Virus record (IMG/VR): IMGVR_UViG_3300006052_000009
Span: 1-64,000 of that record
Length of the DNA stretch: 64,000 nucleotides
Direction: 5' to 3' (one strand)
Source of the DNA: a virus
Below are positions 3,898 to 40,442 of this stretch, one piece after another. A program made the position numbers and the translations under genes. The notes below the pieces were generated by a model. It was not told the DNA's origin. It searched no databases and saw nothing but the letters and a program-made list of their open reading frames with translations. Numbering within the stretch: the first letter of the stretch is position 1; every line of letters starts with the position of its first letter.

Positions 3898-4515
3898 ATG
3901 AATAATCAACCTAAAAATAACCCAATTATGAGACACAAATCAATCCCCAATGGACTTACGCATGAAACCCTCGGACAATGGATCATGCAAAACAGGATCG
4001 AAACAAGAGTTCACTCCGAGAGGATCGAACTCGATGACGAGCAAATACGCGAACTCGAGCACAAATCATCCATGGCATCAAGAGCCATCGACAAGCTCAC
4101 ATCTCAATTAAAGGACATCACTGAATACTTTAAGAAAGGCACCCAAGAGGCGATGCCATTCACAATCTACCCCACCAAAGGCATCGATGTATTGAAGGCC
4201 AACCGCGAGTTTGCCGACAAGTGTCTCGAACTTGGTTACACTGAAGAAAAAATAGAATTGTATGGCCTTCCTTATCCAGAGAAAGAGCAAATTATTTATG
4301 TCGACATCACTGGCGCGGAATACGAGGAGTACACCGAGCACATGAATGACGAGCAGAAGAAAATATTCAACACCTTATTCAAGGAAGAAGAAACGCTGGA
4401 GGAACAAATCCACCGCGAGCAGAAACAAAAAACTAAGAACCTAGAGGTCAACTTTGACGAACGCCAAAAGAAAAACATTCACCCTACGAAGGGGACTGAA
4501 TTGGGACCACTGTAA
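3898..4515 (+). CDS. hypothetical protein
   Basis: ORF with start revised to ATG 3898, 4 nt after CATCTTTG. Confidence 0.7.
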   Translation: MNNQPKNNPIMRHKSIPNGLTHETLGQWIMQNRIETRVHSERIELDDEQIRELEHKSSMASRAIDKLTSQLKDITEYFKKGTQEAMPFTIYPTKGIDVLKANREFADKCLELGYTEEKIELYGLPYPEKEQIIYVDITGAEYEEYTEHMNDEQKKIFNTLFKEEETLEEQIHREQKQKTKNLEVNFDERQKKNIHPTKGTELGPL

Positions 4516-4705
4516 TCTCGAATCCCAACTCTTCGAATAAAGGTTTGATGTCCTTATGAATAGCGTTAACGATTTTAGTTTTGTCGTTTTGATCCAACTC
4601 CATCTTGGTAGTACCATTTTTGCGAAAGTAAATTTTAAAGTAATTTACCTTTGCGGCCTTGGACAACTTGGACAGGTTGATCAGTGTTAGTTTATTGAAT
4701 TGCAT
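4484..4705 (-). CDS. small putative DNA-binding regulator
   Basis: MQFNKLTLINLSKLSKAAKVNYFKIY resembles an HTH; TACATTTG promoter 4 nt upstream. Confidence 0.5.
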   Translation of the reverse strand: MQFNKLTLINLSKLSKAAKVNYFKIYFRKNGTTKMELDQNDKTKIVNAIHKDIKPLFEELGFEITVVPIQSPS

Positions 4706-4744
4706 GACACAAATGTACAATAATATTTGCATTAGCAAAAAGCC

Positions 4745-5140
4745 ATGAAAATTGAACAATTGCGTATCGGTAACTGGGTGTGGGATGACTACTCTGGAGA
4801 AATGATCGTCAAAGAGATCGAAAAGGGTAACAATGAGCATGACTTTGTCGGCCTTTGTAAAGGATGGTCAAATGTGATTGGAAAATATAATGTCGCAATG
4901 ATACAGCCAATATTCATCACTGAAGAGTGGCTGAAGAAATTGGGGTTCACCGATGTTAGAAAGTACAATCCAAATGCAGGGTACGAAATCAAAATTCCTG
5001 GTGGATGCCTTCGATCATATTGGAACGGTAGAATACTCATCTGCTCACACGATGATACAATAGGATTTTATTGCGAGTATGTCCACCAGTTACAGAACCT
5101 ATATTTTGCTCTCACGCAAGAAGAACTTAAAATAAAATAA
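4745..5140 (+). CDS. conserved Bacteroidota-phage hypothetical protein
   Basis: LRIGNWV...IQPIFITEEWLKKLGF...YVHQLQNLYFALT pattern. Confidence 0.75.
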   Translation: MKIEQLRIGNWVWDDYSGEMIVKEIEKGNNEHDFVGLCKGWSNVIGKYNVAMIQPIFITEEWLKKLGFTDVRKYNPNAGYEIKIPGGCLRSYWNGRILICSHDDTIGFYCEYVHQLQNLYFALTQEELKIK

Positions 5141-5142
5141 TT

Positions 5143-5517
5143 ATGCAACCACTACAACTCAAGGCTTTTCTTAAGCCCGAAAATAAAATCATTAACATAC
5201 CTGGCTACGAGGTGGTCAGCGATGGCATCAGAATCTTTGACGGACACTACTTTAGAACGATTCTAAATAACGACATCAAGGTTTTAAGATGTGTCGGTGT
5301 CCCTGATGTGATGGGAAGAGATATTTTCGAGGATGACTTAATTGACGTTCGTATGCCGTTCCCAAAAGCAAATTTTATTGCCAGAGTTAAATTTACAAAT
5401 GGTAAGTTTGTCGCTGAGGGTGAAAAGCATGTATACGATGAGTGGAAGTCTCAAGAAATTTACGTTACTGGAAATTTTAACCTCGAACCTCTTGCCTTCG
5501 AGAAACAAAATAGTTAA
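5143..5517 (+). CDS. YopX-family protein
   Basis: G..D..GRDIFEDDLI and terminal V.GN motif. Confidence 0.65.
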   Translation: MQPLQLKAFLKPENKIINIPGYEVVSDGIRIFDGHYFRTILNNDIKVLRCVGVPDVMGRDIFEDDLIDVRMPFPKANFIARVKFTNGKFVAEGEKHVYDEWKSQEIYVTGNFNLEPLAFEKQNS

Positions 5518-5616
5518 GTTCATCTCCCCAAGTCTTAATTTTTTTTGTCTTTTTTTCAGGCATGGTTTTTTCAGTAAATAGTAAAACGTAGAAAAAAATA
5601 CACAAACCGACAATTT

Positions 5617-5940
5617 ATGGATTCACCGCTGAAGGAATTTCTCCTAGTCTCTGCCGACTTCTTAAAGTTAATGGCCGCCAAGCCCAACGGATACGAAAAA
5701 GACACCCTCGAAAGTTTCTACGACCGTTCCCGTGCCATCGTCCAGAACGCTGAACTCGTCATGCATGCGGCCAAGCTCGAAAAAATTAACGAGCATGCCA
5801 AGGCCAAGATCATGGAGGCAGAACTCAAAAAGATATACAACTATCTTTACATGAAGTTTCCTACACACGCGATGGAACTAATCAAAGAGTCATCACTACC
5901 CACAAGAAAAGAACTTGACGCTCCACTGATTCTGAAATGA
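5617..5940 (+). CDS. hypothetical protein
   Basis: 107 aa, ATGA-coupled to the VapE-like gene. Confidence 0.65.
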   Translation: MDSPLKEFLLVSADFLKLMAAKPNGYEKDTLESFYDRSRAIVQNAELVMHAAKLEKINEHAKAKIMEAELKKIYNYLYMKFPTHAMELIKESSLPTRKELDAPLILK

Positions 5941-7385
5941 GTGTTCAACCTAACAAGCCCGTAATTATTGCAGGGGAGATCGCCTCTGTCTTTGCCGAGA
6001 TACGACTGCTCAACAGAGAAGGTGTAGAGTGGACCAAGGGCGAGGCCGAAACGCTTGCCCTCAAGCACTCCATGGACGCAGAGAAGATTTTTGGGTGGGG
6101 AATCAAGATTTATGAAAAATTTCTAGACGAGAAGGGTGCCTTCACGGGCACCTACATCAAACGCCTCGAGGCGCACCTCAACGATACGTTCCTCTTCAGG
6201 CGCAATCCGCTGTCGCGCTCCGTCAGCTACAAATTGGTGAGCGAACCCAAGGGCGAGTGGATGAACTGCAACTACAACGACATCTGGCGATTCATCCAGC
6301 ACAACAAGCGTGACATGGGCATCCGCGAGAAGGTGGGAATCTCCGATGTGCAGACCATCCTCGAGTCGGACTTCGTCAAGGAGTACAACCCCATCAAGGA
6401 TTACTTCGACAACATCGAGCCGTGGGATGGAGAAGAATACATCGATGCCTTCGCCAACCACATCCAGTGCGAAGACCAGGAGTTCTGGCTCACTCAGTTC
6501 CGTAAGTGTCTCGTAAGAATGATCGCATGCTCCTATTCACACATAGAGAACAGGATAGTGATGACACTATACACAAAGAACCAGGCCATAGGAAAGAATC
6601 GCTTCATCAAGTTCCTAGTCCCCGACAAACTAAAAGAATACTTCAAAGAGGACCCCATCACCGACCACAAAGACTCCGAGATCGCCCTGACTCAAAACTT
6701 CCTATGGCACATGGATGAACTCGAGTCACTCAACCGCAAAGACCTCACCGCCCTCAAGTCGTTTATATCCCGATCCACCTCCAAGCAACGCCTCGCCTAC
6801 GCTAGGCAGGAACTTCCTCGACCACGCATCGTAAACTTCTGGGCATCGACTAACAAAGATGAATTCCTACAAGACGTTCAGAACACTCGCTGGTTATGCT
6901 TCCGGATAAAGTCGATCAACTGGGATTACGACAACGAGTTCACTGGCGTTAAGAAAGTAAACATCGACAAGGTATGGTCACAGGCATGGCACCTGTATCA
7001 GTCAGGCTTCAACTTCCGTCTTGATGAGAACGAGCGCACAGCTCAGGAGAAAGTCAACAAGTCATTCGAGACAATCTCCATCGAGAAGCAACTCATCGCC
7101 AAGCACCTTCACTCCTGTCTGCCTAACGCGATGAACGGTGAGTTCATGTTGCCCGTTGACATCCTCGAGTATATCACCAAGTCATCGGGTAGAATGAATC
7201 TGTCACAGTACGCTATTACACCTGCTCTCATCCAGTTGGGATTCGAACAAATGGAGCAGAAAATAAATGGCAAGATGCTAAAGGGATTCTGGTGCCTGAA
7301 GGTTCACCAAGAAGGACAGACAAACTTTACGGATACAGACAAGGAAGATAAAATCGATCACAGTCAAATAACAGTACCGTTCTGA
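5937..7385 (+). CDS. VapE/VirE-family P-loop NTPase (replication helicase-like)
   Basis: YNPIKDYF..PWDG, Walker A-like NQAIGKN, Walker B MDELE, ASTN..EFL.D..NTRW. Confidence 0.85.
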   Translation: MSVQPNKPVIIAGEIASVFAEIRLLNREGVEWTKGEAETLALKHSMDAEKIFGWGIKIYEKFLDEKGAFTGTYIKRLEAHLNDTFLFRRNPLSRSVSYKLVSEPKGEWMNCNYNDIWRFIQHNKRDMGIREKVGISDVQTILESDFVKEYNPIKDYFDNIEPWDGEEYIDAFANHIQCEDQEFWLTQFRKCLVRMIACSYSHIENRIVMTLYTKNQAIGKNRFIKFLVPDKLKEYFKEDPITDHKDSEIALTQNFLWHMDELESLNRKDLTALKSFISRSTSKQRLAYARQELPRPRIVNFWASTNKDEFLQDVQNTRWLCFRIKSINWDYDNEFTGVKKVNIDKVWSQAWHLYQSGFNFRLDENERTAQEKVNKSFETISIEKQLIAKHLHSCLPNAMNGEFMLPVDILEYITKSSGRMNLSQYAITPALIQLGFEQMEQKINGKMLKGFWCLKVHQEGQTNFTDTDKEDKIDHSQITVPF

Positions 7386-12431: not shown

Positions 12432-12730
12432 AATCCAGCCTCCTCGGCCTCAATCTTTGCCTTCACCTCCGCTAATATCCTCCTCCTGCGCTCCTTCTTC
12501 GCCTCCTTCTCCTCCTTCCTCCTCTGCTCAAGGAACATCGTCTCGTAAGACCTCATGTTCCACAACTTTTTCTTCACATCATCCTCGTCAAATCCGAACT
12601 CATACCTACCAACAAATTGAAGCAGTTCCGACACCGTCATTCCGTACTTCTCACAGACCCTGTTTACATTCAATTTATTGTGCTCTAAGAACCACACCGC
12701 GATCATCTTTTTTTTCTCCATAAAAAACAC
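12428..12730 (-). CDS. hypothetical protein, possible HTH
   Basis: NVNRVCEKYGMTVSEL; start may be ATG 12721. Confidence 0.55.
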   Translation of the reverse strand: MFFMEKKKMIAVWFLEHNKLNVNRVCEKYGMTVSELLQFVGRYEFGFDEDDVKKKLWNMRSYETMFLEQRRKEEKEAKKERRRRILAEVKAKIEAEEAGL

Positions 12731-12876
12731 TGAATTGCTCCGAGTATACTTGCAAATTTAAGATTAAAAATATAAAATCAAAATACTTTTTTAAAAAATA
12801 CTAAAAACACGACTTTTTTAAAACCGCTTTTTTACATGTGTATACAAAGAAAAAATCAGACCCCGAGGAGAAATGT

Positions 12877-12954
12877 GATCACCACAGATTAATAGGATTT
12901 TTGAAGTATACTGTATAAGATATACATAAAAATTCCTATTAAACTGTTGTGATC
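12877..12954. repeat. 34-bp imperfect inverted repeat (29/34) with 10-bp spacer
   Basis: arms 12877-12910 and 12921-12954. Confidence 0.85.
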
Positions 12955-13349
12955 GTTTTTGTAATACAAAATCCTTTGAAAAATGACCGAAAAATCACCA
13001 TGTTTACAGAAATGTTTACAAATGTCTACAAATTTGTTTAGAATCATTCCAAATAAGCACCAAAATCCCAGAAATCAGCGTGTAACAGTAGTTTTAACAC
13101 CCAAAATCACCCCCAAATTTGCTTTTGACAAAAATCACCCCTATTTTCACATAAAATGACACCAAAATTCCGCACGCTTACGTCAATGCACCTCCCGCAC
13201 CAATGTCCCCCCGCGAGTCCCGAATTGGGCTTTTGGTTTTCTGAGGGGTGGGGAGTCGATTTTCCCAAAAAGAGAATCCAAAACATAATGCTTTTATCTG
13301 ATTGTCAGCCGGTTACAAACTATTTAACATAATACAAATTATATAACAC

Positions 13350-13916: not shown

Positions 13917-14091
13917 AAAAAATCCAGGGTAATTAGAATGGTTCTAAATAATACGTGTTGGTTCTCAATGCGTTGAGTTGCATGTAATATTGATGTAAGG
14001 TTATTTCTACAAGATATTTTGTAGTTCAAAGAATTTTGTAGACATTTGATGTGTCAAGTGAGGGATAAAACACTTCTAAACGATCAAGAAT

Positions 14092-14428
14092 ATGAACACA
14101 CATTTCGACATTAATGAGCATGGGTGCAGAGACTTCCCGAAAGAGTCTCAATTAGAATTGGTACGTGCGATGGCACGTTCACAGATAGTATGGTCATGGG
14201 GTGCGCATGCATGGGCAAACGTATATGACAAGGGATTGAGGTTTTAGAGTCAATGGTCACCATCACAAAGGTCTTGTGTACATTGTTGTGAATGGTAGCG
14301 ACTTGTTCGATGTGTATCTGACTGACAACAAAGGTAAGATCAAGGAGAGTCTGATTGATGTGTATGTTGAAGACTTGATTAACACGATCGATCAGAGAGT
14401 TGAATACATTGATGCATACAAATTTTAA
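14092..14428 (+). pseudogene. frameshifted hypothetical gene (+1 shift at 14242-14247)
   Basis: frame 0 stops at TTT TAG; +1 frame continues RVNGHHHKGLVYIVVNGSDLFDVYL; joined product 111 aa. Confidence 0.7.
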
Positions 14429-14680
14429 TCTTAAACAATAAACGATCATGAAAACGATTAGCACAACTGACGAGTTAGTTGCCATGAAGGCGAGACTCAC
14501 ACATTTCGAAGATGCGTATCAGGCATTAAATTCTGCTTGGATAAATGCGGAGTATGAATTTAATGATGGCATTCTTAATACTAATAATCCTACAGACTGA
14601 AGACGGATTAAAGACGAGTGTTCGAATAGAGGAGCATCAATTTAAAGAAATACTGAACACATTTAAGAGGTGAATTACCA

Positions 14681-14710: not shown

Positions 14711-14752
14711 GCAATGCGAATATTCGCAGATATTAAAAACAATAAACGATCT

Positions 14753-15457
14753 ATGGAAACTTATGTAGCGACAAGGGAGCAATTGATGGGAGTATCATTG
14801 CCCGAACAAACGAAGACTTACAAACCTGTAAGCCATGCACAATTGATTGACTTGACATTGGAGTCTATTGACAAGTCAGGATTTAAGTTAGCGAGTGAGG
14901 AGTATTCAGCATCACAGAATGGTCAGATTGCCAACGGCAAATTTGCGATTGCAAACTTGTTTGACACAGAGATGCAATTACAGATCGGATGGCAGAATAG
15001 TTACAACAAAAAACTGACCTTGAAGTTTGCCATTGGTTCGCGCATCTTCATCTGCTCGAATGGATGTGTACGTGGTGACTTTGGTAGTTTTAAAAGAAAG
15101 CATGTGGGTGATGTGCAGGAATTCACACCAGAGGCGATCACGGAATACATCAAGAGGAGTTCGGATGTGTTCACCTTGATGCAATCAGAGAGGGATGCCA
15201 TGAAGTCTGTGGGACTGACGGCTCGCGATCGTTCTACCTTGGTGGGTAGGATGTTCTTGGAGGAGGAATTGATCACAGCGACACAGCTAGGCATCATTGC
15301 ACGGGAGATCAAGGCACCGACACACGATTATAATGCCGAGGACAGTCTATGGGAGTTGTACAACTACACCACGTTTGCCTATAAGGAGATTAACCCAGCA
15401 TTGTGGATGAGTCAGCATATGAGTGCGCATGAGTTTTTTGTGTCACTCACCAAGTAG
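14753..15457 (+). CDS. DUF932/DUF945-family protein
   Basis: TYKPVSH, NSYNK, RIFICSNG, KRKH, SLWELYNYTT; start revised to ATG 14753. Confidence 0.8.
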   Translation: METYVATREQLMGVSLPEQTKTYKPVSHAQLIDLTLESIDKSGFKLASEEYSASQNGQIANGKFAIANLFDTEMQLQIGWQNSYNKKLTLKFAIGSRIFICSNGCVRGDFGSFKRKHVGDVQEFTPEAITEYIKRSSDVFTLMQSERDAMKSVGLTARDRSTLVGRMFLEEELITATQLGIIAREIKAPTHDYNAEDSLWELYNYTTFAYKEINPALWMSQHMSAHEFFVSLTK

Positions 15458-15497
15458 AATGGTTCGTTGGGGAGGTTCGACTCCTCCCCTACTTGCA
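15451..15497 (+). ncRNA. tRNA top-half mimic (T-arm plus acceptor-like stem)
   Basis: GGAGG-TTCGACT-CCTCC T arm; caagta/tacttg closing stem; no D or anticodon arm. Confidence 0.55.
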
Positions 15498-15515
15498 AAC
15501 TAATTTTTAACGATC

Positions 15516-15695
15516 ATGTACACACAACTAACCATTGAACAGGCCTTGGCTGAGCTGATCAGCCTCCACGGAGTATTGATTAAGATTAAGGACGCGCCAG
15601 GCATTGAGCCGGTGCTCAAGACATTGGATTCTGCCTACAAGGCATTGGACGACATGGCTCAGGATTATGCAAACTATTTGGAGGAAAGGAGGTAA
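15516..15695 (+). CDS. small helical protein (59 aa, MYTQLTIEQALAEL)
   Basis: translated by hand; AACGATC directly before the ATG. Confidence 0.65.
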   Translation: MYTQLTIEQALAELISLHGVLIKIKDAPGIEPVLKTLDSAYKALDDMAQDYANYLEERR

Positions 15696-15699
15696 CGCC

Positions 15700-16359
15700 A
15701 TGAATACAAAAACGATTAACGGAATCAAATACATCGTTTACGAGGCTGGTATGGTCTTAAGCGATGAAACAAAATCATACTATTTCGAAAATGATTTGGA
15801 TTATGATGGGGATTTGAAATGCTTGTATTTGTATGCAATCAAAAGCGTAACGGTCCGAGGCAATCAGGATGTCCGAGGCAATCAGTATGTCGGAGGCAAT
15901 CAGTATGTCGGAGGCAATCAGGATGTCCGAGGCAATCAGTATGTCGGAGGCAATCAGTATGTCGGAGGCAATCAGGATGTCCGAGGCAATCAGTATGTCG
16001 GAGGCAATCAGTATGTCGGAGGCAATCAGTATGTCGGAGGCTATCAGTATGTCGGAGGCAATCAGGATGTCCGAGGCTATCAGTATGTCGGAGGCAATCA
16101 GGATGTCCGAGGCCATCAGGATGTGAGGTACCTCATTGTTTACTGTTTTTGCAAATATCCTATTAGATTAGATAGAGATTCCGATGAAATAAAAATTGGA
16201 TGTGTCTCTAAAACTACGGATGGATGGAATGACTTTTTCGATAATAAGCAAACTATTTCTATGAGTGCAGAGGATAGAAACTATAAGAAACTGGCCGCTG
16301 CTTTGAATGCTGCCATTGCGATGAGGGATGTTTTAAAAGTTATGAACGATAAGCCATGA
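15700..16359 (+). CDS. hexapeptide-repeat (beta-helix-like) protein
   Basis: 15 x V[GR]G[NYH]Q[YD]; C-terminal IKIGC...W motif; start revised. Confidence 0.75.
   Translation: MNTKTINGIKYIVYEAGMVLSDETKSYYFENDLDYDGDLKCLYLYAIKSVTVRGNQDVRGNQYVGGNQYVGGNQDVRGNQYVGGNQYVGGNQDVRGNQYVGGNQYVGGNQYVGGYQYVGGNQDVRGYQYVGGNQDVRGHQDVRYLIVYCFCKYPIRLDRDSDEIKIGCVSKTTDGWNDFFDNKQTISMSAEDRNYKKLAAALNAAIAMRDVLKVMNDKP
15853..16122 (+). repeat. 18-bp tandem repeat, 15 units
   Basis: consensus gtc[gc]gaggc[atc]atcag[tg]at. Confidence 0.95.
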
Positions 16360-16465
16360 TCGTCATCTATTGGAACGGTCATCGCTGGGAGTTTAACGAT
16401 CAAGAGGGATATGCATTCCTTGAGTATTGGAAGTTAAAGGGTGATGGCGCAAATGTATTTAAGAA

Positions 16466-16651
16466 ATGAGGAAAACCAAAAAACCTGAATGGATCAAGAA
16501 AGCAATTCGCAATCAAAATGCGAGGAAGAGATACTTTATGAAACGATATGGTAATCTTGATCGCATGGAAGTGATTGAGGCAAAATTTCAACACATGATG
16601 GATGAATGGTCATTCAATGATGAACTTAAAAAAATGGAAGATATTAAATGA
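16466..16651 (+). CDS. small basic hypothetical protein
   Basis: 61-aa ORF. Confidence 0.5.
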   Translation: MRKTKKPEWIKKAIRNQNARKRYFMKRYGNLDRMEVIEAKFQHMMDEWSFNDELKKMEDIK

Positions 16652-16653
16652 CT

Positions 16654-16718
16654 AGGTGGTAGCCTTCGGGCGCACGTTCATGTTTTACTTGATCGTTTTC
16701 ATGGACGGCCACCTTTTT
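16654..16718 (+). ncRNA. candidate three-way-junction RNA with 17-nt U-rich loop and U-tail
   Basis: P1 16654-60/16708-14; P2 gcc-TTCG-ggc; P3 16675-82/16700-07; intergenic. Confidence 0.65.
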
Positions 16719-16733
16719 AACTGCAAACTAATT

Positions 16734-17039
16734 ATGGAAAAGAAAAAACTTTTAGGCGATTGGACAAGAAAAGAATTTGAGGCTCTCCCATGTAGAGCAT
16801 GGGATGAGGAGATTGAATTCACTTCTATGGTTATACTACCAACAAGACGCATTCATGATTCGGGCTACAGATGCATGGATTTTGTTGCGTGCAAAAATCA
16901 GGTTCCTTTCGTTCGTCTTTCAGGGTGCTCTGATGTAATCCACGTTGATGGCATCGGTGGTTATGGTAAGGACTGGCTAAACTCACATCGGATGACATGC
17001 GGTAGTGCGCTATCTTCATTTGAATTATACAGTTTATGA
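16734..17039 (+). CDS. hypothetical phage protein
   Basis: HDSGYRCM..GCSDVIH; start revised to MEKKK. Confidence 0.6.
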   Translation: MEKKKLLGDWTRKEFEALPCRAWDEEIEFTSMVILPTRRIHDSGYRCMDFVACKNQVPFVRLSGCSDVIHVDGIGGYGKDWLNSHRMTCGSALSSFELYSL

Positions 17040-17297
17040 AACCGCTACCTGCATCTTTACTGACTATCTTCATCGGCTATATATTGGCCTTTGTGATCTT
17101 TGTTTTACTAGTTAAATTGATATCGCTATGAAAACACATTTGAAGACGATAGGGGTAATGATGTTGATATTCACATATTGGATATTAATCTGGTGGGCAA
17201 TGGCTGAGTTTAAATGGCTGGCATGGGCAGTAATATGGATTTTAGGTGGAGGATTACTTGTTTGTTTATATGTCATTATTTACAAATCTCTGAAGCC

Positions 17298-17495
17298 ATG
17301 AAAATAAGAATCGAAGTACAATGTGAACTTTGCAAAGGCAATGGTTATGTTGATAGAACATTATGTCCTTACTGTGATGGTAAGGGATGGATTAAAATGC
17401 CAATGATATTAAGTCAAAAAAGATATGTTCCTGATGATGAGACTTATTTGGTTGTTGAGTTTTTAATTGATAATAAACAAGAAGTAGAACTATGA
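17298..17495 (+). CDS. DnaJ-type zinc-finger protein
   Basis: CELCKGNG...CPYCDGKG. Confidence 0.65.
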   Translation: MKIRIEVQCELCKGNGYVDRTLCPYCDGKGWIKMPMILSQKRYVPDDETYLVVEFLIDNKQEVEL

Positions 17496-17650
17496 CCTAC
17501 GATGTTCGCGAATATAACTCAGGGCGACTAGTCCGCACGGTAAGGTGGAATTTGCCCATTGGCATGGCTCGCTTTTATAAGCGATTACTGGAGAACTCTC
17601 CGCACATGGATGGCAGTAAGTTTGAGATTGAACTAAACAAGAAGGTATGA
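17492..17650 (+). CDS. small hypothetical protein (52 aa)
   Basis: translated by hand; ATGA-coupled at both ends. Confidence 0.5.
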   Translation: MTYDVREYNSGRLVRTVRWNLPIGMARFYKRLLENSPHMDGSKFEIELNKKV

Positions 17651-17955
17651 GAATAAATCTGGCTGAACTTCTAAAACAAAATGGGGTAGCATTAACCCGA
17701 GGGAGCAAACTATTTTTACTTTTCCTATTGTCTGGCTGCATCACAAGCAACAATCGATTCTACAACACGATTACTGACTGCAAACTAATTGTGCTCGACA
17801 AGAGGTACGTACCTGGCTTTCAGTCTCCAGATAAATATCTGCTGAAAGTGTACGAAAGTGGTGAGTATCGGTGGCTAAGTTCATCGGTGTCACAGTACAA
17901 AGTTCTTGCCATTGGTGATACGCTGAAGACAACACTAATACAGAAGGTGCAATGA
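17647..17955 (+). CDS. putative lipoprotein
   Basis: LFLLFLLSGC lipobox-like. Confidence 0.5.
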   Translation: MRINLAELLKQNGVALTRGSKLFLLFLLSGCITSNNRFYNTITDCKLIVLDKRYVPGFQSPDKYLLKVYESGEYRWLSSSVSQYKVLAIGDTLKTTLIQKVQ

Positions 17956-19084: not shown

Positions 19085-19870
19085 ATGCAAACTGGAGTTT
19101 ACACTATTACTAATAAAATAACCAATCAGATTTATGTTGGTTCCACTGGTAAAAGTTTTAAAGAAAGATGGTGGAAACACAAAAATCAATTCAAGCTAGG
19201 TAACCATTACAATCCATATTTAAGATACGCTGTTGCTTTTTATGGGATAGATAATTTTGAGTTTGAAGTTTTAGAAGAATGCGAACCAAGTCATTGCGTA
19301 TTCATGGAGCAGTATTGGATGAATTTACTTTGCTCATATGATTTAAATTTTGGATACAACTTTAAAACCAATGTAACTAGCAATTTAGGTGCAAAGCATT
19401 CAGAAGAAACCAAGCGAAAAATTTCATTAGGTAATAAAGGAAAAATAAGCCCAATGCGTGGAAAAAAATTGTCTGAGGAAACAAAGGCAAAAATGAGTAA
19501 GTCTCAATCTGGACGTAAAATGAAGGAAGAATTTTGTATTAAAAATGGATTAAGAAAAAAAGGTAATAAATACTGGTTGGGTAAAAAACATTCTGAAGCC
19601 ACAAAAAAAAGATTGTCGCAATATAGAACAGGCAAACAATCGCCCATGAAAGGAGTAAAATTTTCAGAAGAACGCATCAACCAAATGATTACAAACCCCA
19701 TCAGAAAAAAAACAATTTTACAATTTAATAAAGAAGGAGTTTTTATAAAAGAATGGCCATCAATAAGAGGTGCAGCAAGAATTCTAAATTTGCAACATTC
19801 AAATATTGCCTCTTGCGCAAAAGGAATAGCTAAATCTTGTGGTGGATTCATTTGGAAATTTTATTCCTAA
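19085..19870 (+). CDS. free-standing GIY-YIG homing endonuclease (NUMOD3/NUMOD1)
   Basis: GVYTITN..IYVGST; HSEETKRKIS repeats; C-terminal NUMOD1; AT-rich. Confidence 0.9.
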   Translation: MQTGVYTITNKITNQIYVGSTGKSFKERWWKHKNQFKLGNHYNPYLRYAVAFYGIDNFEFEVLEECEPSHCVFMEQYWMNLLCSYDLNFGYNFKTNVTSNLGAKHSEETKRKISLGNKGKISPMRGKKLSEETKAKMSKSQSGRKMKEEFCIKNGLRKKGNKYWLGKKHSEATKKRLSQYRTGKQSPMKGVKFSEERINQMITNPIRKKTILQFNKEGVFIKEWPSIRGAARILNLQHSNIASCAKGIAKSCGGFIWKFYS

Positions 19871-20534: not shown

Positions 20535-22673
20535 ATGTTTACTCCGACAAGTAATCCGTACAAGTTTCAATATCTCGTTACAGGCATCTCAGGTCCTGGC
20601 ATTGAACAAGTATATCTTCCCGAGCAGCCAAAGAAACTTCATTTCGAGAAAGAACAGAAGTTCATCAGACCAACTCCTCCAGAGTATTTAAGGGACTGGA
20701 TGGATGAGTTTGAACAAGAACGTGAACTGGATGATAACTACATTCACCCTCATCAGGCCGAGCTAAACAAGTGGGAGGAACAAGAGTTTGAAAGAGTAAC
20801 AAATGGGTTCTGGTTCTGGAACAATGGAACACCAACCTATCTCACAGGTGATTACTATAAATACTTAACTCAATGGCAACCGTTGTTTGGCCATCCAGAC
20901 TTTAGGGAAGCAGACAAAGAAGTATTCTATTGGATAAAATATTGGGAGGAGGATCCCGAGTGTTATGGGGGAGTTTATAATACTCTTCGCAGGGCTGGTA
21001 AAAGCACAACAATGGGATTCTGGATTCTTAACAGAACATCCACCAACTTCAAACATCTCTCCGGAATGCAGGGAGAGGATGACACCAAGATCAGAAATTT
21101 TTACAATGAAATGGTGATTGATCCATTTTATAAACTTCCATACTACTCCAAGCCTACATACGATACCACAACGCTACAGAAGAAAGGAATTATCTTCAAA
21201 GATCCACCCAAGCGTAACAGACGCAGAATAGTATCAAAGGATAAGTTAGTCCTTGAATCTAAAATGGATTTTAGAACAAGCGAAGCCAATAAATATGATC
21301 AGGCTAAACTTCATTCATACCTGATGGAGGAGCCTGGCAAAACAATTTCGGTTGATGTATCTCAACGATGGGCATTTGTGAAGCCTTGTTTAAGACTTGG
21401 TAAAAAAATAATTGGCAAGGCATTCTGGGCAACAACTGTTGAGTTCATGGATGCGGCTGATCGTGGAGGTCGAGCCTATAAGAAAGTTTGTTTCGAGTCT
21501 GACTTTGACAGGCGCACTAAACTTGGACAGACTAAGTCGGGAATGTATGCTGCTATGATGCCTGCGGACTGTGCATACGAAGGATTCATTGACGATTGGG
21601 GAAGGCCAATGCGTGAGAAGGCAAGACAAAATATTCTCGATGAGCGTGAAGCATACAAAGACAATCCTAAAGATTACTCTGCACTCATCAGAAAGTTTCC
21701 TCTCAATTGGAACGAAGTATTTTACATCTCTGCCGACAAGTGCGAGTTCAATGCGACTATACTTCAAGACAGGAGATCAGAATTATTGATGAACCCTCCT
21801 CAATTGCGTTTGGTCAATCTACGATGGGCAGACAATGAACGGTTCTCTCGCGTCCAATGGTTTGACGATCCTGACAATGGGTGGCTTAAGCTCGGATGGC
21901 TTCCAAGAGATGAGAAAGAAAGAGAGTGGCTCAACAATGTGGAAGAAAGGTTTGAGAATGGCAGAACGAAATATATTCCAAGGAACACCAACATCTTCGG
22001 TTCAGGTGTTGACCCTATCGATCACGGTGTGGTGGTAACGGATTCCATGACCAACGATAGTGAGTTTGTGTCCTCACGCAGATCGCGTCCTGTTCTATTC
22101 GTCAAACGCAAGTACGACTCGTCTATCGATGGACAGATAAGCCAAGAACTTCTCGAGCAACGGGCAAGAGAAAAATATCCATACGTCACAGGCAAATACA
22201 TCGCCATGATGGACCGCAGGCCGAGTGACCCTAACGTCATGTTCGAACGTGCGCTCATGGTGTGCTGGCTGTTTGGCACTCAACTCAACGTAGAGCACCA
22301 GAAGCCTGGCATCATCAACTGGTTCAATGATGCAGGCTGTGAGGAGTTCCTTCAGGACAAATACGTTCCCATCGAAGCTCTACGCAAAAAATCCGATGAC
22401 CAGAAGGGCACACCAGCCTCAGCGATGATGATCCAAGAGTATACCTCTGCCATCGCCACCGATGTAGAATACTTTGGACACACCTACATTTTCCTCGAAA
22501 TGATTGACGATGACCTTGTCTTTGATCCACTTAACACCAAGGTGCATGACTACACCGTGGCTCAGGGAATGACCGAGATTGGGTGCAAGATCAGACCGAA
22601 ACAAGTTGCATTGCCTGTAAAGGACATCACAGACTACTTCAGAGTATACAAAAAGCCAGAAAGGAAGTATTAA
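20535..22673 (+). CDS. terL: terminase large subunit
   Basis: Walker A RRAGKST, Walker B LMEEPGK, nuclease GVDPID; precedes portal. Confidence 0.9.
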   Translation: MFTPTSNPYKFQYLVTGISGPGIEQVYLPEQPKKLHFEKEQKFIRPTPPEYLRDWMDEFEQERELDDNYIHPHQAELNKWEEQEFERVTNGFWFWNNGTPTYLTGDYYKYLTQWQPLFGHPDFREADKEVFYWIKYWEEDPECYGGVYNTLRRAGKSTTMGFWILNRTSTNFKHLSGMQGEDDTKIRNFYNEMVIDPFYKLPYYSKPTYDTTTLQKKGIIFKDPPKRNRRRIVSKDKLVLESKMDFRTSEANKYDQAKLHSYLMEEPGKTISVDVSQRWAFVKPCLRLGKKIIGKAFWATTVEFMDAADRGGRAYKKVCFESDFDRRTKLGQTKSGMYAAMMPADCAYEGFIDDWGRPMREKARQNILDEREAYKDNPKDYSALIRKFPLNWNEVFYISADKCEFNATILQDRRSELLMNPPQLRLVNLRWADNERFSRVQWFDDPDNGWLKLGWLPRDEKEREWLNNVEERFENGRTKYIPRNTNIFGSGVDPIDHGVVVTDSMTNDSEFVSSRRSRPVLFVKRKYDSSIDGQISQELLEQRAREKYPYVTGKYIAMMDRRPSDPNVMFERALMVCWLFGTQLNVEHQKPGIINWFNDAGCEEFLQDKYVPIEALRKKSDDQKGTPASAMMIQEYTSAIATDVEYFGHTYIFLEMIDDDLVFDPLNTKVHDYTVAQGMTEIGCKIRPKQVALPVKDITDYFRVYKKPERKY

Positions 22674-38735: not shown

Positions 38736-40442
38736 ATGAAAACTAAAAAGAAAACTTACTCCGACAAAGTAAAGAACAAACTGAACCCGACATCGATTAA
38801 ACCGATTCGCATTGATTGTGGATGTGGTAAGAACAAACGCAAGGATGGAGATTGGATTGGTGTAGATGTGATCGCCTTCGAGGGAGTCGACATAGTGATG
38901 GATTTAGGCAAGAATAAGTGGCCATGGAAAGATGGTTCCGTTGACGAGGTTCATGCTTCACACTTTGTCGAGCACCTGAAGCCAGAAGAAAGAATTCATT
39001 TTGTAAACGAATTGTACCGAGTGTTGAAGGATCCTAAATATGTTGACGGCAAGCGTGTAGAAGGATTCGCCACCATCATTGTTCCTCACTGGGCAAGCCA
39101 ACGGGCTTATGGGGATTTAACTCATTGTTTTTCTGAGGACACAGAAATATTAACTGAGAACGGATGGAAGTCAATATCAAAAGTTAATATTGGTGAAAAG
39201 GTATTGTCTTTAGATTTAAAGACTGAAGAAAGTCATTTTGAAGAAGTTATCGGTGTAATCAATGAACCTTACATTGGTCCAATGTTGCATTTTGAATCAG
39301 AATGTCTTGATTTAAAAGTTACACCAAATCACGATATGGTGTGGAGAGCAAAAACTAATAGTTCCCCAGGCTACTATAAAAGAAAAGAAATACCTCATCC
39401 AAGACCAATATTAAGAAAATCTCAAGCAGATACTTTTGAAAAAATGGGTGGACATCATCCACGTTGTGGAACTGCTGTAATTAATTGGAAAGGCGAATTC
39501 CATGAAAAAATACGTATTGCAGATGATGAATTAAGTCTAGGTAGAGTTTTAAATGCTGAATATAAATCAGAAGACTTTGCTGAATTTATGGGGTGGTTTA
39601 TTGCTGAGGGGCATGTTGATTTAAGTAGTAATAATCACTACAGAATTACTATTGCTCAAAGTAGTTCTGCAAATCCACATAAAGTGGAACAAATAAAGAA
39701 TTTATTGGACAGAATGGGATTTACTTATAAAGTATATCCTGATAGAATAAGATTTGATTCAAAACCACTTGCTTTATATCTCAAAAAATTAGGATTAAGC
39801 CATGAAAAGTTTATTCCGAATGAGATTAAATCTTTATCACCCAATCTATTGAGAATATTTTTAGATTCTGCCATAAAGGGTGACGGTAGAACTAATAGTA
39901 GTAATGGATGGGAGTACGCAACAGTATCGTTAAGACTTGCAGATGACATACAAGAAGTTGCTTTAAAGGCTGGATACAGGACATCATTAAGGAAAGATAG
40001 GGTCGCTGGAACATCAGGTGGAGTTGTAAACGGACATGAGGTAATAAGCCAACATGATCTTTATATGGTTGGGATTTATCAAAATACTGATTTATGGTAC
40101 CCTAAGCCAAAAAGAATTGAATATTCAGGTAAAATGGTTTGTGTAACATTAGCTAATCATAATAATATTTTTGTAAGAAGAAACGGGAAACCAATTTGGT
40201 CTGGTAACTGCTGGCCACCAGTGTCTGAATTCTGGTTCTATTACCTCGACAAGGATTGGAGGGCGATTAACGCTCCCCACAACGATAAGTATACATGCCA
40301 CTTCGGATGTAACTGGTGGTACAACATGAAGGAGGAGATACAGTCGCGCAACACCGAATACCAGACCAATGCGGCTTTATACTGGAAGGAGGCATGTTCA
40401 GATACAATAGCTACCTTTGAGAAAAAACCTTTAACCAAATAA
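38736..40442 (+). CDS. class I SAM-dependent methyltransferase interrupted by an intein
   Basis: DCGCG motif I, WPWKDGSVDEVHASHFVEHL, ELYRVLK; 207-aa extein after splicing. Confidence 0.85.
   Translation: MKTKKKTYSDKVKNKLNPTSIKPIRIDCGCGKNKRKDGDWIGVDVIAFEGVDIVMDLGKNKWPWKDGSVDEVHASHFVEHLKPEERIHFVNELYRVLKDPKYVDGKRVEGFATIIVPHWASQRAYGDLTHCFSEDTEILTENGWKSISKVNIGEKVLSLDLKTEESHFEEVIGVINEPYIGPMLHFESECLDLKVTPNHDMVWRAKTNSSPGYYKRKEIPHPRPILRKSQADTFEKMGGHHPRCGTAVINWKGEFHEKIRIADDELSLGRVLNAEYKSEDFAEFMGWFIAEGHVDLSSNNHYRITIAQSSSANPHKVEQIKNLLDRMGFTYKVYPDRIRFDSKPLALYLKKLGLSHEKFIPNEIKSLSPNLLRIFLDSAIKGDGRTNSSNGWEYATVSLRLADDIQEVALKAGYRTSLRKDRVAGTSGGVVNGHEVISQHDLYMVGIYQNTDLWYPKPKRIEYSGKMVCVTLANHNNIFVRRNGKPIWSGNCWPPVSEFWFYYLDKDWRAINAPHNDKYTCHFGCNWWYNMKEEIQSRNTEYQTNAALYWKEACSDTIATFEKKPLTK
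39126..40208 (+). mobile_element. intein with LAGLIDADG endonuclease (361 aa)
   Basis: N-terminal CFSEDTEILTENGW; VTPNH block B; FMGWFIAEG and FLDSAIKGDG; C-terminal WSGN followed by Cys+1. Confidence 0.92.

What the first reader, a model, noticed from the sequence alone, without database searches (positions are those of the whole stretch)
16654..16718. Structured RNA whose loop is antisense to a motif at early-gene start sites
Seen: an intergenic three-way junction (P1 aggtggt/gccacct, P2 with cUUCGg tetraloop, P3 cgttcatg/catggacg) ends in a U-tract and exposes the loop TTTTACTTGATCGTTTT (16683-16699). Its complement occurs at starts of upstream genes in the same operon: AAACGATCAAG (14078-14088, 11 nt perfect, ATG 14092), AAACGATCA (14440-14448) plus CATGAAAACGAT (14447-14458), AAACGATC (14744-14751, ATG 14753) and AACGATCA (15509-15516). 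AAAACGAT also lies just inside the 15700 gene. Inference: a multi-target phage sRNA that shuts off translation of early genes by masking SD-less initiation regions. I do not recognise this as a described system.
Basis: partly seen in the sequence, partly recalled or inferred. Interest (0 to 1): 0.85.

Follow-up and report, generated by a model that had tools for sequence, protein, structure and literature searches.

The report
Phage terminator loop complementary to early-gene leaders
A terminator-like RNA hairpin in a phage of Bacteroidota-type bacteria carries an unusually large loop that is the exact complement of a short box just before the start codons of several upstream early genes, and related phages keep this match, so it may be an RNA switch for early genes, although no experiment shows this yet.

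Summary
Window 16654-16718 folds as a branched hairpin (-24.2 kcal/mol, z -3.15) ending in TTTTT, three bases after the stop codon of an upstream gene. Its 17-nt apical loop is complementary to AAACGATC(AAG) boxes that lie 0-3 nt upstream of four early-gene ATGs.

New evidence: three other phage genomes carry the same arrangement (G001, G002 and metagenome contig L038; terminase 46-62% identical). Each has a strong hairpin plus T-tract followed by GCAAACTAA. There are three unrelated stem designs but one conserved loop core, ACTTG(A/G)TCGT. The loop follows each phage's own leader box: window loop A with leader GATC, G001 and G002 loop G with leader GACC. However, it rests on a single substitution event, and a DNA site present in both orientations would show the same pattern.

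Against: duplex-energy and unfiltered match counts do not beat shuffled loops, because T-rich loops match A-rich leaders. The window and G001 show no promoter of their own for the element, and no RNA data could be obtained.

Best reading (0.45): an early-operon terminator whose loop acts as an anti-leader RNA. It is a new variant of phage antisense control and is untested.

The parts
16654..16718 (+). Branched hairpin (P1, P2 with a UUCG tetraloop, P3) plus T-run. It looks like an intrinsic terminator, placed 3 nt after the stop codon of ORF 16466-16651.
   Evidence: Sequence. Fold -24.2 kcal/mol, z -3.15. No Rfam family at gathering threshold, and only snoRNA noise with E>1.
16683..16699 (+). 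17-nt apical loop TTTTACTTGATCGTTTT, proposed as the anti-leader. The core ACTTGATCGT is conserved as ACTTGGTCGT in G001, G002 and L038.
   Evidence: Mean unpaired probability 0.79.
14078..14088 (+). Leader box AAACGATCAAG, 3 nt before ATG 14092. It is an 11-nt perfect complement of the loop.
   Evidence: Duplex -14.4 kcal/mol, region 0.70 unpaired.
14440..14458 (+). Leader box AAACGATC directly before ATG 14448, followed by AAAACGAT inside the ORF. CATGAAAACGAT is complementary to the 3' part of the loop plus 4 nt of the P3 arm.
   Evidence: The same box-ATG-box arrangement occurs in G002 at 14807-14833.
14744..14751 (+). Leader box AAACGATC, 1 nt before ATG 14753 of the DUF932-family gene.
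   Evidence: Pfam DUF932, E 1.8e-7. Homologues align from residue 1-3 of this start.
15509..15516 (+). Leader box AACGATCA overlapping ATG 15516. It is preceded by GCAAACTAATTTTT (15495-15508) and by the hairpin GGGGAGG-ttcga-CTCCTCCCC.
16395..16404 (+). Extra copy of AACGATCAAG inside ORF 16356-16469, 290 nt upstream of the loop.
   Evidence: It is one of 3 copies in the window, against 0.18 expected.
16723..16733 (+). GCAAACTAATT motif directly before ATG 16734. It is the second conserved block of the element in all four genomes.
   Evidence: GCAAACTAWTT occurs 6 times against 0.16 expected, all on the + strand within 15495-17790.
16734..17039 (+). Downstream gene of 101 aa. The true start is ATG 16734, not the upstream GTG or ATG that would run through the hairpin.
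   Evidence: All 23 IMG/VR loci found with this protein encode a relative, and 22 of the 23 matches begin at query residue 1-11 (L023 begins at residue 32). The upstream DNA of those 23 loci shows no comparable hairpin.
16466..16651 (+). Upstream gene of 61 aa. Its stop codon lies just before the hairpin.
12951..12958 (-). One more inverted copy of AAACGATC, in the 630-bp divergent intergenic region. It is not in a hairpin loop and its meaning is unknown.

Best explanation
The element is the intrinsic-terminator hairpin that closes the first block of rightward early genes of a roughly 73-kb podophage with a Bacteroidota-type host. Unlike ordinary terminators, it presents a 13-17-nt single-stranded apical loop with the conserved core CUUG(A/G)UCGU.

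An RNA would carry this hairpin: either the 3' end of the early transcripts or a stable 3' fragment of them. In G002 and L038 it could also be a short RNA started from the GCAAACTAA motif just upstream. Through the loop, this RNA would base-pair with the box AAACGA(U/C)C(AAG), which lies 0-6 nt before the AUG of three or four upstream early genes. Because the duplex would lie against the start codon, the most likely effect is to block ribosome loading, possibly followed by decay. That would be a self-limiting shut-off of the immediate-early genes, acting in trans or within the same polycistronic RNA.

Shown: the structure, the conserved loop on changing stems, the complementarity, and the co-variation between loop and leader. 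Inferred: that the RNA exists as a stable species, that the pairing happens, and that its effect is repression.
For: 1. The fold and T-run are at the stated place.
2. Four genomes have the same layout of hairpin, T4-5 and (A)AAGCAAACTAA-ATG. The fold values are window -24.2 kcal/mol (z -3.15), G001 -21.3 (z -2.60), L038 -26.0 (z -3.27) and G002 -27.2 (z -3.59).
3. There are three unrelated stem designs but one loop core, ACTTGRTCGT. In the consensus fold, 3 of 6 pairs are kept through changes on both sides. Each stem contains a G-U pair when read on the + strand, which fits a + strand RNA.
4. Among simple hairpin-plus-T-run sites with a stem of at least 9 pairs and at least 6 G-C pairs, 6 of 7 have loops of 3-6 nt. 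The seventh is the G001 element, with a 16-nt loop.
5. Loop and leader match within each genome.
   - Window: loop TTGATCGT; leaders AAACGATC(AAG) at 4 start codons.
   - G001: loop TTGGTCGT; AAACGACCA occurs 3 times in 70 kb, all just before ATGs 0.8-2.5 kb upstream of the hairpin.
   - G002: loop TTGGTCGT; all 4 + strand copies of AACGACCA in 76.8 kb lie 1-3 kb upstream of the hairpin. Three lie directly before an ATG and one directly after it. The best leader has a 12-nt perfect complement.
6. In all three complete genomes every leader copy has the same orientation and lies upstream of the hairpin. The only inverted copy in the early region is in the loop.
7. When only matches with at least 3 G/C are counted, 3 start regions per genome carry a complement of 8 nt or more. 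The numbers of 1000 shuffled loops doing as well are 0 (window), 3 (G001) and 20 (G002). The longest match of 11 nt is reached by 5 of 1000 shuffles, and 12 nt by 2 of 1000.
8. The loops are 0.57-0.93 unpaired and the target regions 0.57-0.83 unpaired. Duplex energies range from -9.7 to -18.8 kcal/mol.
Against: - Duplex energies of the loop against all start regions do not exceed shuffled loops for the window. Three regions reach -10 kcal/mol or lower, against 2.93 expected, and 162 of 300 shuffles do as well. For G001 the result is marginal (15-18 of 300).
- Unfiltered counts of 8-nt matches do not exceed shuffles: 208, 60 and 173 of 1000 for the three genomes. T-rich loops match A-rich leaders by composition.
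- Genome-wide, several coding sites pair with the loop as well as the leaders do, or better, when G-U pairs are allowed.
- The leader boxes are repeats of one cassette, so they count as one event. The co-variation is a single substitution, and G001, L038 and G002 share a related early region.
- G001's own loop pairs over only 8 nt. One G002 leader, AAACAACCAAT, has a central mismatch.
- The conserved loop flank UUUUAC lies outside the complementarity for most leaders.
- No promoter was found for the element in the window or in G001.
Confidence: 0.45

Rival explanations
1. This is a DNA-level signal, not RNA pairing. AAACGAYC(AAG), together with GCAAACTAATTTT, would be part of a mobile terminator-promoter or leader cassette at early-gene boundaries, comparable to the PeSL cassettes of T4-type phages. 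Alternatively it would be the site of a phage DNA-binding protein. The copy in the hairpin loop is then the same site in the other orientation, so it tracks the leader version automatically.
For: - GCAAACTAWTT occurs 6 times against 0.16 expected in the window, on the + strand only. G001 has 5-6 copies and G002 has 9.
- This motif sits before ATGs, across ATGs (ATGCAAACTAAT) and across stop codons. That fits a DNA or transcription signal better than a translation signal.
- L038 has two extra genes, relative to G001, between two GCAAACTAATTTT-ATG junctions. The same gene carries the box in G002 but not in G001. Both look like cassette shuffling.
- On the minus strand, the window hairpin reads like a leader plus ATGAAC.
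- An inverted copy of a site co-varies with the site by definition.
Against: - An orientation-free DNA site should be found in both orientations. Instead all 10 leader copies (window 4, G001 3, G002 3) point one way.
- The single inverted copy per early region is always in the apical loop of a strong hairpin whose stems have been replaced three times. That is the signature of a presented single strand.
- A directional promoter copy pointing backwards inside a terminator has no evident use.
Confidence: 0.2
2. This is an ordinary early-operon terminator. Its loop would be conserved for another reason, for example as the binding site of a phage or host RNA-binding protein or as a stability element. 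The complementarity to the A-rich leaders would then be incidental.
For: - The position directly after a stop codon, the GC-rich stem and the T-run fit a terminator in all four genomes.
- Loop conservation extends to UUUUAC, which most leaders do not match.
- Composition-driven matches are common.
- A 2-bp AC/GU mini-helix inside the loop is invariant in all four.
Against: - Perfect complements of 11 and 12 nt that include the GC-containing core are rare for shuffled loops (5 and 2 of 1000).
- The 10-mer AACGATCAAG occurs 3 times against 0.18 expected.
- The A-to-G difference in the loop falls exactly opposite the T-to-C difference in the leaders.
Confidence: 0.2
3. The pairing is real but has a positive or structural role. 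A 3'-to-5' long-distance loop-leader contact within the polycistronic early RNA would stabilise the leaders against nucleases or help ribosomes reach SD-less starts, as in the long-distance kissing contacts of 3' translation enhancers in plant RNA viruses. Alternatively it would modulate read-through of the terminator.
For: - The complementarity and co-variation are the same as for the main explanation.
- All boxes lie upstream of the hairpin in the same transcription direction in the three complete genomes, so pairing in cis is possible.
- CATGAAAACGAT (14447-14458) would invade 4 bp of the P3 stem.
Against: - A duplex ending 0-3 nt from the AUG lies inside the ribosome footprint, so occlusion is the simpler expectation.
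- Nothing in the data indicates the direction of the effect.
Confidence: 0.1

Closest known systems
c4 antisense RNA of phages P1/P7 (Rfam RF01695) and the CI RNA of satellite phage P4
   Same: These are phage RNAs encoded in the same operon as their targets. They use exposed loop sequences to pair with short complementary boxes at or near a ribosome-binding site of the operon's own transcript. Loop and target differ together between related phages, which is the basis of P1/P7 heteroimmunity. These mechanistic details are recalled. Calls here showed only that RF01695 exists and that Citron & Schuster 1990 is cited for it (passages of PMC2864571).
   Different: - No sequence or structure match: Rfam returns nothing at gathering threshold and no c4 hit up to E=10.
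- Here the regulator would be the terminator hairpin at the 3' end, and the targets are three or four leaders upstream of it. In P1 there is one downstream target.
- The host is Bacteroidota-type and the phage appears lytic.
PeSL (promoter-early stem-loop) cassettes of T4-type phages
   Same: Conserved composite stem-loop-plus-promoter motifs sit at the boundaries of small, variable early ORFs and are associated with modular gene shuffling. Here a hairpin, a T-run and GCAAACTAATTTT(+box)-ATG recur at early-gene boundaries, and gene content between the motifs differs among relatives. For PMC2839356 and PMC4122927 I saw only the search listing and the start of each abstract.
   Different: - The motif sequence is unrelated to PeSL, and promoter activity is untested.
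- As far as I recall, PeSL loops are not reported to be complementary to leaders.
3'UTR/terminator-derived trans-acting sRNAs of bacteria, and T4 RegA (a protein) as a functional analogue
   Same: In the bacterial sRNAs, a stable 3'-end fragment that includes the terminator acts on the translation initiation regions of several mRNAs. T4 RegA represses many early mRNAs by binding next to their AUGs. Both points are recalled and come from no call.
   Different: - In known 3'-derived sRNAs the seed is usually 5' of the terminator hairpin, not in its apical loop.
- RegA is a protein.

Membership tests
Rho-independent (intrinsic) terminator | GC-rich stem followed directly by a run of U, placed after a stop codon | tested here: met
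   Window: stem and TTTTT at 16654-16718, 3 nt after TGA 16649-16651. The same holds in G001, L038 and G002.
Rho-independent (intrinsic) terminator | Small apical loop (typically 3-8 nt) | tested here: not met
   The apical loops of this element are 13-17 nt. Of 7 strong simple hairpin-plus-T sites in G0, G001, L038 and L041, 6 have loops of 3-6 nt, and the seventh is this element in G001.
Rho-independent (intrinsic) terminator | Transcripts actually end there | not testable with these tools
c4 antisense RNA (RF01695) | Match to the family covariance model | tested here: not met
   cmscan of the whole window gave 0 hits at gathering threshold. In 16550-16800, up to E=10, only 3 snoRNA models matched, with E 1.2-6.1.
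c4 antisense RNA (RF01695) | Loop sequences complementary to boxes in the same operon's transcript near a start site, co-varying between related phages | tested here: met
   This is a likeness in logic only and does not show membership.
PeSL-like mobile regulatory cassette | Conserved stem-loop plus promoter-like motif repeated at boundaries of variable early ORFs | tested here: inconclusive
   The repeated GCAAACTAWTT motif (6 against 0.16 expected) and the gene shuffling between motif copies fit. Most copies lack a hairpin, and promoter function cannot be tested here.
Trans-acting (3'-derived) sRNA | Discrete stable RNA species | not testable with these tools
   No RNA data.
Trans-acting (3'-derived) sRNA | Accessible seed complementary to several mRNA initiation regions, above chance | tested here: inconclusive
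   Loop and targets are predicted to be largely unpaired. Enrichment is significant only after low-complexity matches are removed. Energies and raw counts give no significant result.

The most novel reading that the evidence does not exclude
A lineage of phages of Bacteroidota-type hosts uses the loop of its early-operon terminator as a multi-target anti-leader riboregulator. Every immediate-early transcript would end in an RNA that masks the box next to the AUG of the same gene set, giving an RNA-only, self-timed shut-off of early translation in hosts that largely lack Shine-Dalgarno pairing and Hfq. Loop and box would evolve together and could set phage-specific 'immunity' between relatives.
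Probability: 0.4. Interest if true: 0.8.

Novelty: new variant of a known kind. Interest (0 to 1): 0.62.

Why it matters
If the pairing is functional, this would be a compact RNA-only timer for early genes in a phage group whose regulation is almost unknown. It would also be an example of a terminator loop serving as a seed, and a case where regulator and targets can be read directly from the genome sequence.

It offers a cheap, decisive experiment: loop and leader compensatory mutants in a reporter. It also gives a searchable signature for similar systems, namely a large conserved terminator loop together with its complement beside start codons.

My literature checks were limited to two searches. 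One covered crAss-like virion RNA polymerase and early promoters. The other covered phage-encoded sRNA with Bacteroidetes, crAss or early genes (1,651 papers matched, 15 listed). Neither listing showed a description of such an element. The phi14:2 preprint says that early transcripts had no detectable common upstream motif (passages seen). Its supplementary tables could not be seen.

Tried and rejected
- **Protein-anchored search around the element.** Relatives of the downstream 101-aa protein (23 loci) and of the DUF932 protein (12 loci) are in unrelated phages. None has the hairpin or the motifs.
- **Nucleotide search of cultured phages.** No relative was found. In protein mode, the terminase is 25% identical at best, to Flavobacterium and Cellulophaga podophages. 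That is too distant to carry the element.
- **Pattern ACTTGRTCGT-N10-40-GCAAACTAAT.** In IMG/VR, 32 stretches matched. Only 2 are real, and both are G001 contigs. The other 30 are unrelated sequence: 25 near-identical copies of one family, 4 of another and 1 single hit. In GTDB genomes, all 14 hits are chance, with no hairpin.
- **Relaxed pattern ACTTGNTCGT-N8-38-GCAAACTAA.** This gave 47 stretches. The only true ones are G001 (2 contigs) and G002, and all 14 new loci are chance.
- **Pattern GCAAACTAATTTTTA.** Only G001 and G002 carry several motif copies.
- **Other searches for relatives.** A terminase search of GTDB contigs found no relative. The p18593 alignment found only G001.
- **L038 and L041 upstream DNA.** It could not be extended because the records are not held. 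L038's leaders are therefore unknown.
- **Idea that the 2485-aa protein is a crAss-type virion RNA polymerase.** It has no DFDxD motif and no Pfam hit, so the idea was dropped.
- **Idea that GCAAACTAATT is a host promoter.** On the + strand it does not fit the TAnnTTTG consensus (recalled). Its reverse complement does fit. This was left open.
- **Consensus folding.** The automatic alignment of the four sequences is poor because the stems are not homologous.

Full report
**Setting.** The window is the first 64 kb of a single 72,894-bp virus record.
- The genes to the right of a 630-bp divergent intergenic region (12722-13349) are small + strand ORFs of mostly unknown function. After them come a GIY-YIG endonuclease gene, the large terminase subunit (20535-22673; named from cultured relatives at 25% identity) and the structural genes. 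One structural protein has a crAss-type muzzle C-terminal domain.
- Most gene starts lack a Shine-Dalgarno sequence. Many are preceded by TAnnTTTG a short distance upstream. I recall that consensus as the Bacteroidota -7 promoter box.
- The nearest cultured relatives infect Flavobacterium and Cellulophaga, so the host is very probably a member of Bacteroidota. The 2485-aa protein has no DFDxD motif and no Pfam hit, so I do not call it a virion RNA polymerase.

**The observation.**
- Every coordinate and sequence in the finding is correct.
- The hairpin begins 3 nt after the TGA of ORF 16466-16651. It ends in TTTTT and is followed by AACTGCAAACTAATT-ATG.
- The ATG at 16734 is the real start of the next gene. 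Of 23 homologues found in IMG/VR, 22 align from residue 1-11 of that start, and none shows a comparable hairpin upstream. The ORF extension through the hairpin is therefore not coding.
- Rfam has no family for the element, and no tRNA was found in the window.
- The complementary boxes lie 0-3 nt before the ATGs at 14092, 14448, 14753 and 15516. A further AACGATCAAG lies inside ORF 16356-16469.
- The 10-mer AACGATCAAG occurs 3 times in the window against 0.18 expected.

**Relatives.** Protein-anchored and pattern searches found three other genomes with the element.
- G001 is an IMG/VR record of 70,051 nt, also represented by a second, identical contig. Its terminase is 62% identical.
- L038 is a metagenome contig. 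Its terminase is 60% identical to the window's and 88% to G001's.
- G002 is an IMG/VR record of 76,773 nt, estimated 99% complete. Its terminase is only 46% identical and sits elsewhere in the genome, on the other strand.

All other pattern hits were chance matches: 30 of 32, 14 of 14 and 14 of 14 new loci. The early regions of G001 and the window share almost no detectable protein homology; 2 of the 20 window ORFs queried had a match.

Even so, all four genomes have the same layout: a strong hairpin right after a stop codon, a T4-5 run, and then (A)AAGCAAACTAA shortly before an ATG. The hairpins fold at -21.3 to -27.2 kcal/mol with z -2.6 to -3.6.

The stems are unrelated:
- Window: CGUUCAUG/CAUGGACG inside an outer helix, with an extra UUCG arm.
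- G001: one long GGCCCGGGGGAG/CUCUCCCGGUGUCC stem.
- L038 and G002: CCCCGGAG.../...CUCUGGG around CAAGGU/ACCUUG.

The apical loop keeps one core:
- Window: UUUUACUUGAUCGUUUU.
- L038: UUUACUUGGUCGUUUU.
- G002: UUUUACUUGGUCGUUGA.
- G001: UUUAAAACUUGGUCGU.

Strong ordinary terminators in these genomes have loops of 3-6 nt (6 of the 7 strong sites found; the seventh is this element).

**The loop follows the leader.**
- In G001, AAACGACCA occurs three times in 70 kb, always just before an ATG and 0.8-2.5 kb upstream of the hairpin.
- In G002, all four + strand copies of AACGACCA lie 1-3 kb upstream of the hairpin. They are AAACGACCAAGT-ATG, immediately followed by AAAACGACCAAG inside the ORF, and AAACGACC-ATG twice. 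The first gives a 12-nt perfect complement to G002's loop.
- The window therefore has loop A with leader T (GATC), while G001 and G002 have loop G with leader C (GACC).
- The box-ATG-box arrangement is shared by the window (14440-14458) and G002 (14807-14833).
- In the three complete genomes all leader copies point the same way and lie upstream of the hairpin. The one inverted copy in the early region is in the loop.
- Loops and targets are predicted to be mostly single-stranded, and the duplexes are -9.7 to -18.8 kcal/mol.

**Controls that weaken the case.**
- Duplex energies of the loop against all start regions are no better than those of shuffled loops for the window, and only marginally better for G001.
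- Genome-wide, several coding sites pair as well as the leaders do when G-U pairs are allowed.
- Raw counts of start regions with an 8-nt complement are also not significant: 208, 60 and 173 of 1000 shuffles reach the observed count. The reason is that T-rich loops find A-runs in the leaders.
- Only when the matched segment must contain at least 3 G/C does the signal stand out. Then 3 start regions per genome qualify, against 0, 3 and 20 of 1000 shuffles, and the longest matches of 11 and 12 nt are reached by 5 and 2 of 1000 shuffles.
- The leader boxes are copies of one cassette and are not independent. The co-variation is one substitution, and G001, L038 and G002 share a related early region.
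- G001's own loop pairs over only 8 nt. One G002 leader (AAACAACCAAT) has a central mismatch.
- No RNA data could be obtained.

**Context that bears on mechanism.**
- GCAAACTAWTT is a second conserved signal. It occurs 6 times against 0.16 expected in the window, on the + strand only and within 15495-17790. G001 has 5-6 copies, G002 has 9, L038 has 5 and L041 has 4.
- This motif lies before ATGs, across ATGs and across stop codons. L038 has two extra genes between two copies of it, relative to G001. This resembles the promoter-stem-loop cassettes of T4-type phages (search listing only). It may be the early promoter or a processing site.
- In G002 and L038 a copy lies 12-13 nt before the hairpin. 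That could make the hairpin a short transcription unit of its own. The window and G001 have no such copy.

**Interpretation.**
- The simplest reading that accounts for all the following is a + strand RNA whose loop pairs with the leader box: a single-stranded sequence presented on interchangeable stems, strand-specific orientation, position next to AUGs, and matched variants. I put this at 0.45, with repression of translation as the likelier direction because the duplex would lie against the start codon.
- A DNA-level site or cassette remnant (0.2) explains the co-variation but not the conserved hairpin presentation.
- A terminator whose loop is conserved for another reason (0.2) explains the extra conserved loop bases but not the 11-12-nt matches.
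- A positive or structural long-range contact (0.1) cannot be separated from repression with sequence alone.

**Comparison with known systems.** In logic the element is closest to the c4 RNA of P1/P7 and the CI RNA of P4 (recalled; RF01695 seen), but it is not a member of either family. It is also close to 3'-derived sRNAs, and T4 RegA is a protein analogue (both recalled). I rate it a new variant of a known kind. It is real, conserved and experimentally tractable, but functionally unproven.

Noticed in passing
window 15495-17790 (+ strand); G001 and G002 early regions: GCAAACTAWTT(TT) is a strongly over-represented, strand-specific motif at early-gene boundaries: 6 copies against 0.16 expected in the window, 5-6 in G001, 9 in G002, 5 in L038 and 4 in L041. 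It lies before ATGs, across ATGs (ATGCAAACTAAT = MQTN) and across stop codons. It could be an early promoter, a processing site or a cassette junction. Its reverse complement fits the recalled Bacteroidota -7 box TAnnTTTG.
   Followed up: partly
window 15853-16124: There are 15 tandem copies of an 18-bp unit (91% matches) inside gene 15700-16359. They encode hexapeptide repeats (VRGNQD/VGGNQY) and give a weak Pfam hit to an ice-binding-like adhesive domain.
   Followed up: partly
window 12722-13349: This 630-bp divergent non-coding region between the leftward and rightward operons contains short direct repeats: ATGTTTACA-like three times around 13000-13035, and AAAATCACC three times between 12990 and 13140. 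It could be an origin or a control region.
   Followed up: no
window, many gene starts (e.g. 18140, 37967, 38714, 42595, 62590): Middle and late genes often have AAACTAAC(C) in a short leader before the ATG, frequently downstream of a TAnnTTTG box. Most starts lack a Shine-Dalgarno sequence, but gene 15700 has AGGAGG.
   Followed up: no
window 19085-19870 and 38736-40442: 19085-19870 encodes a GIY-YIG/NUMOD homing endonuclease. The 568-aa protein from 38736-40442 has Hint and LAGLIDADG domains and looks like an intein-containing gene.
   Followed up: no
L038 697-1103 compared with G001 (L037 4823-4840): L038 carries two extra small genes between the hairpin and the MNLYEY gene. They are flanked by identical GCAAACTAATTTT-ATG junctions, which suggests cassette insertion by recombination at the motif.
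   Followed up: partly
L181 2630-2850 (G002): A long GCT/GAT/TAT-rich simple-repeat tract lies inside an early ORF and gives an Ala/Tyr/Asp-rich low-complexity protein segment.
   Followed up: no
G002 3980-6124 (- strand): G002's terminase is only 46% identical to those of the window and G001, and it sits on the other strand far from the early region. Yet G002's early region is close to L038's. These phages are mosaics, and the early module seems to move between lineages.
   Followed up: partly
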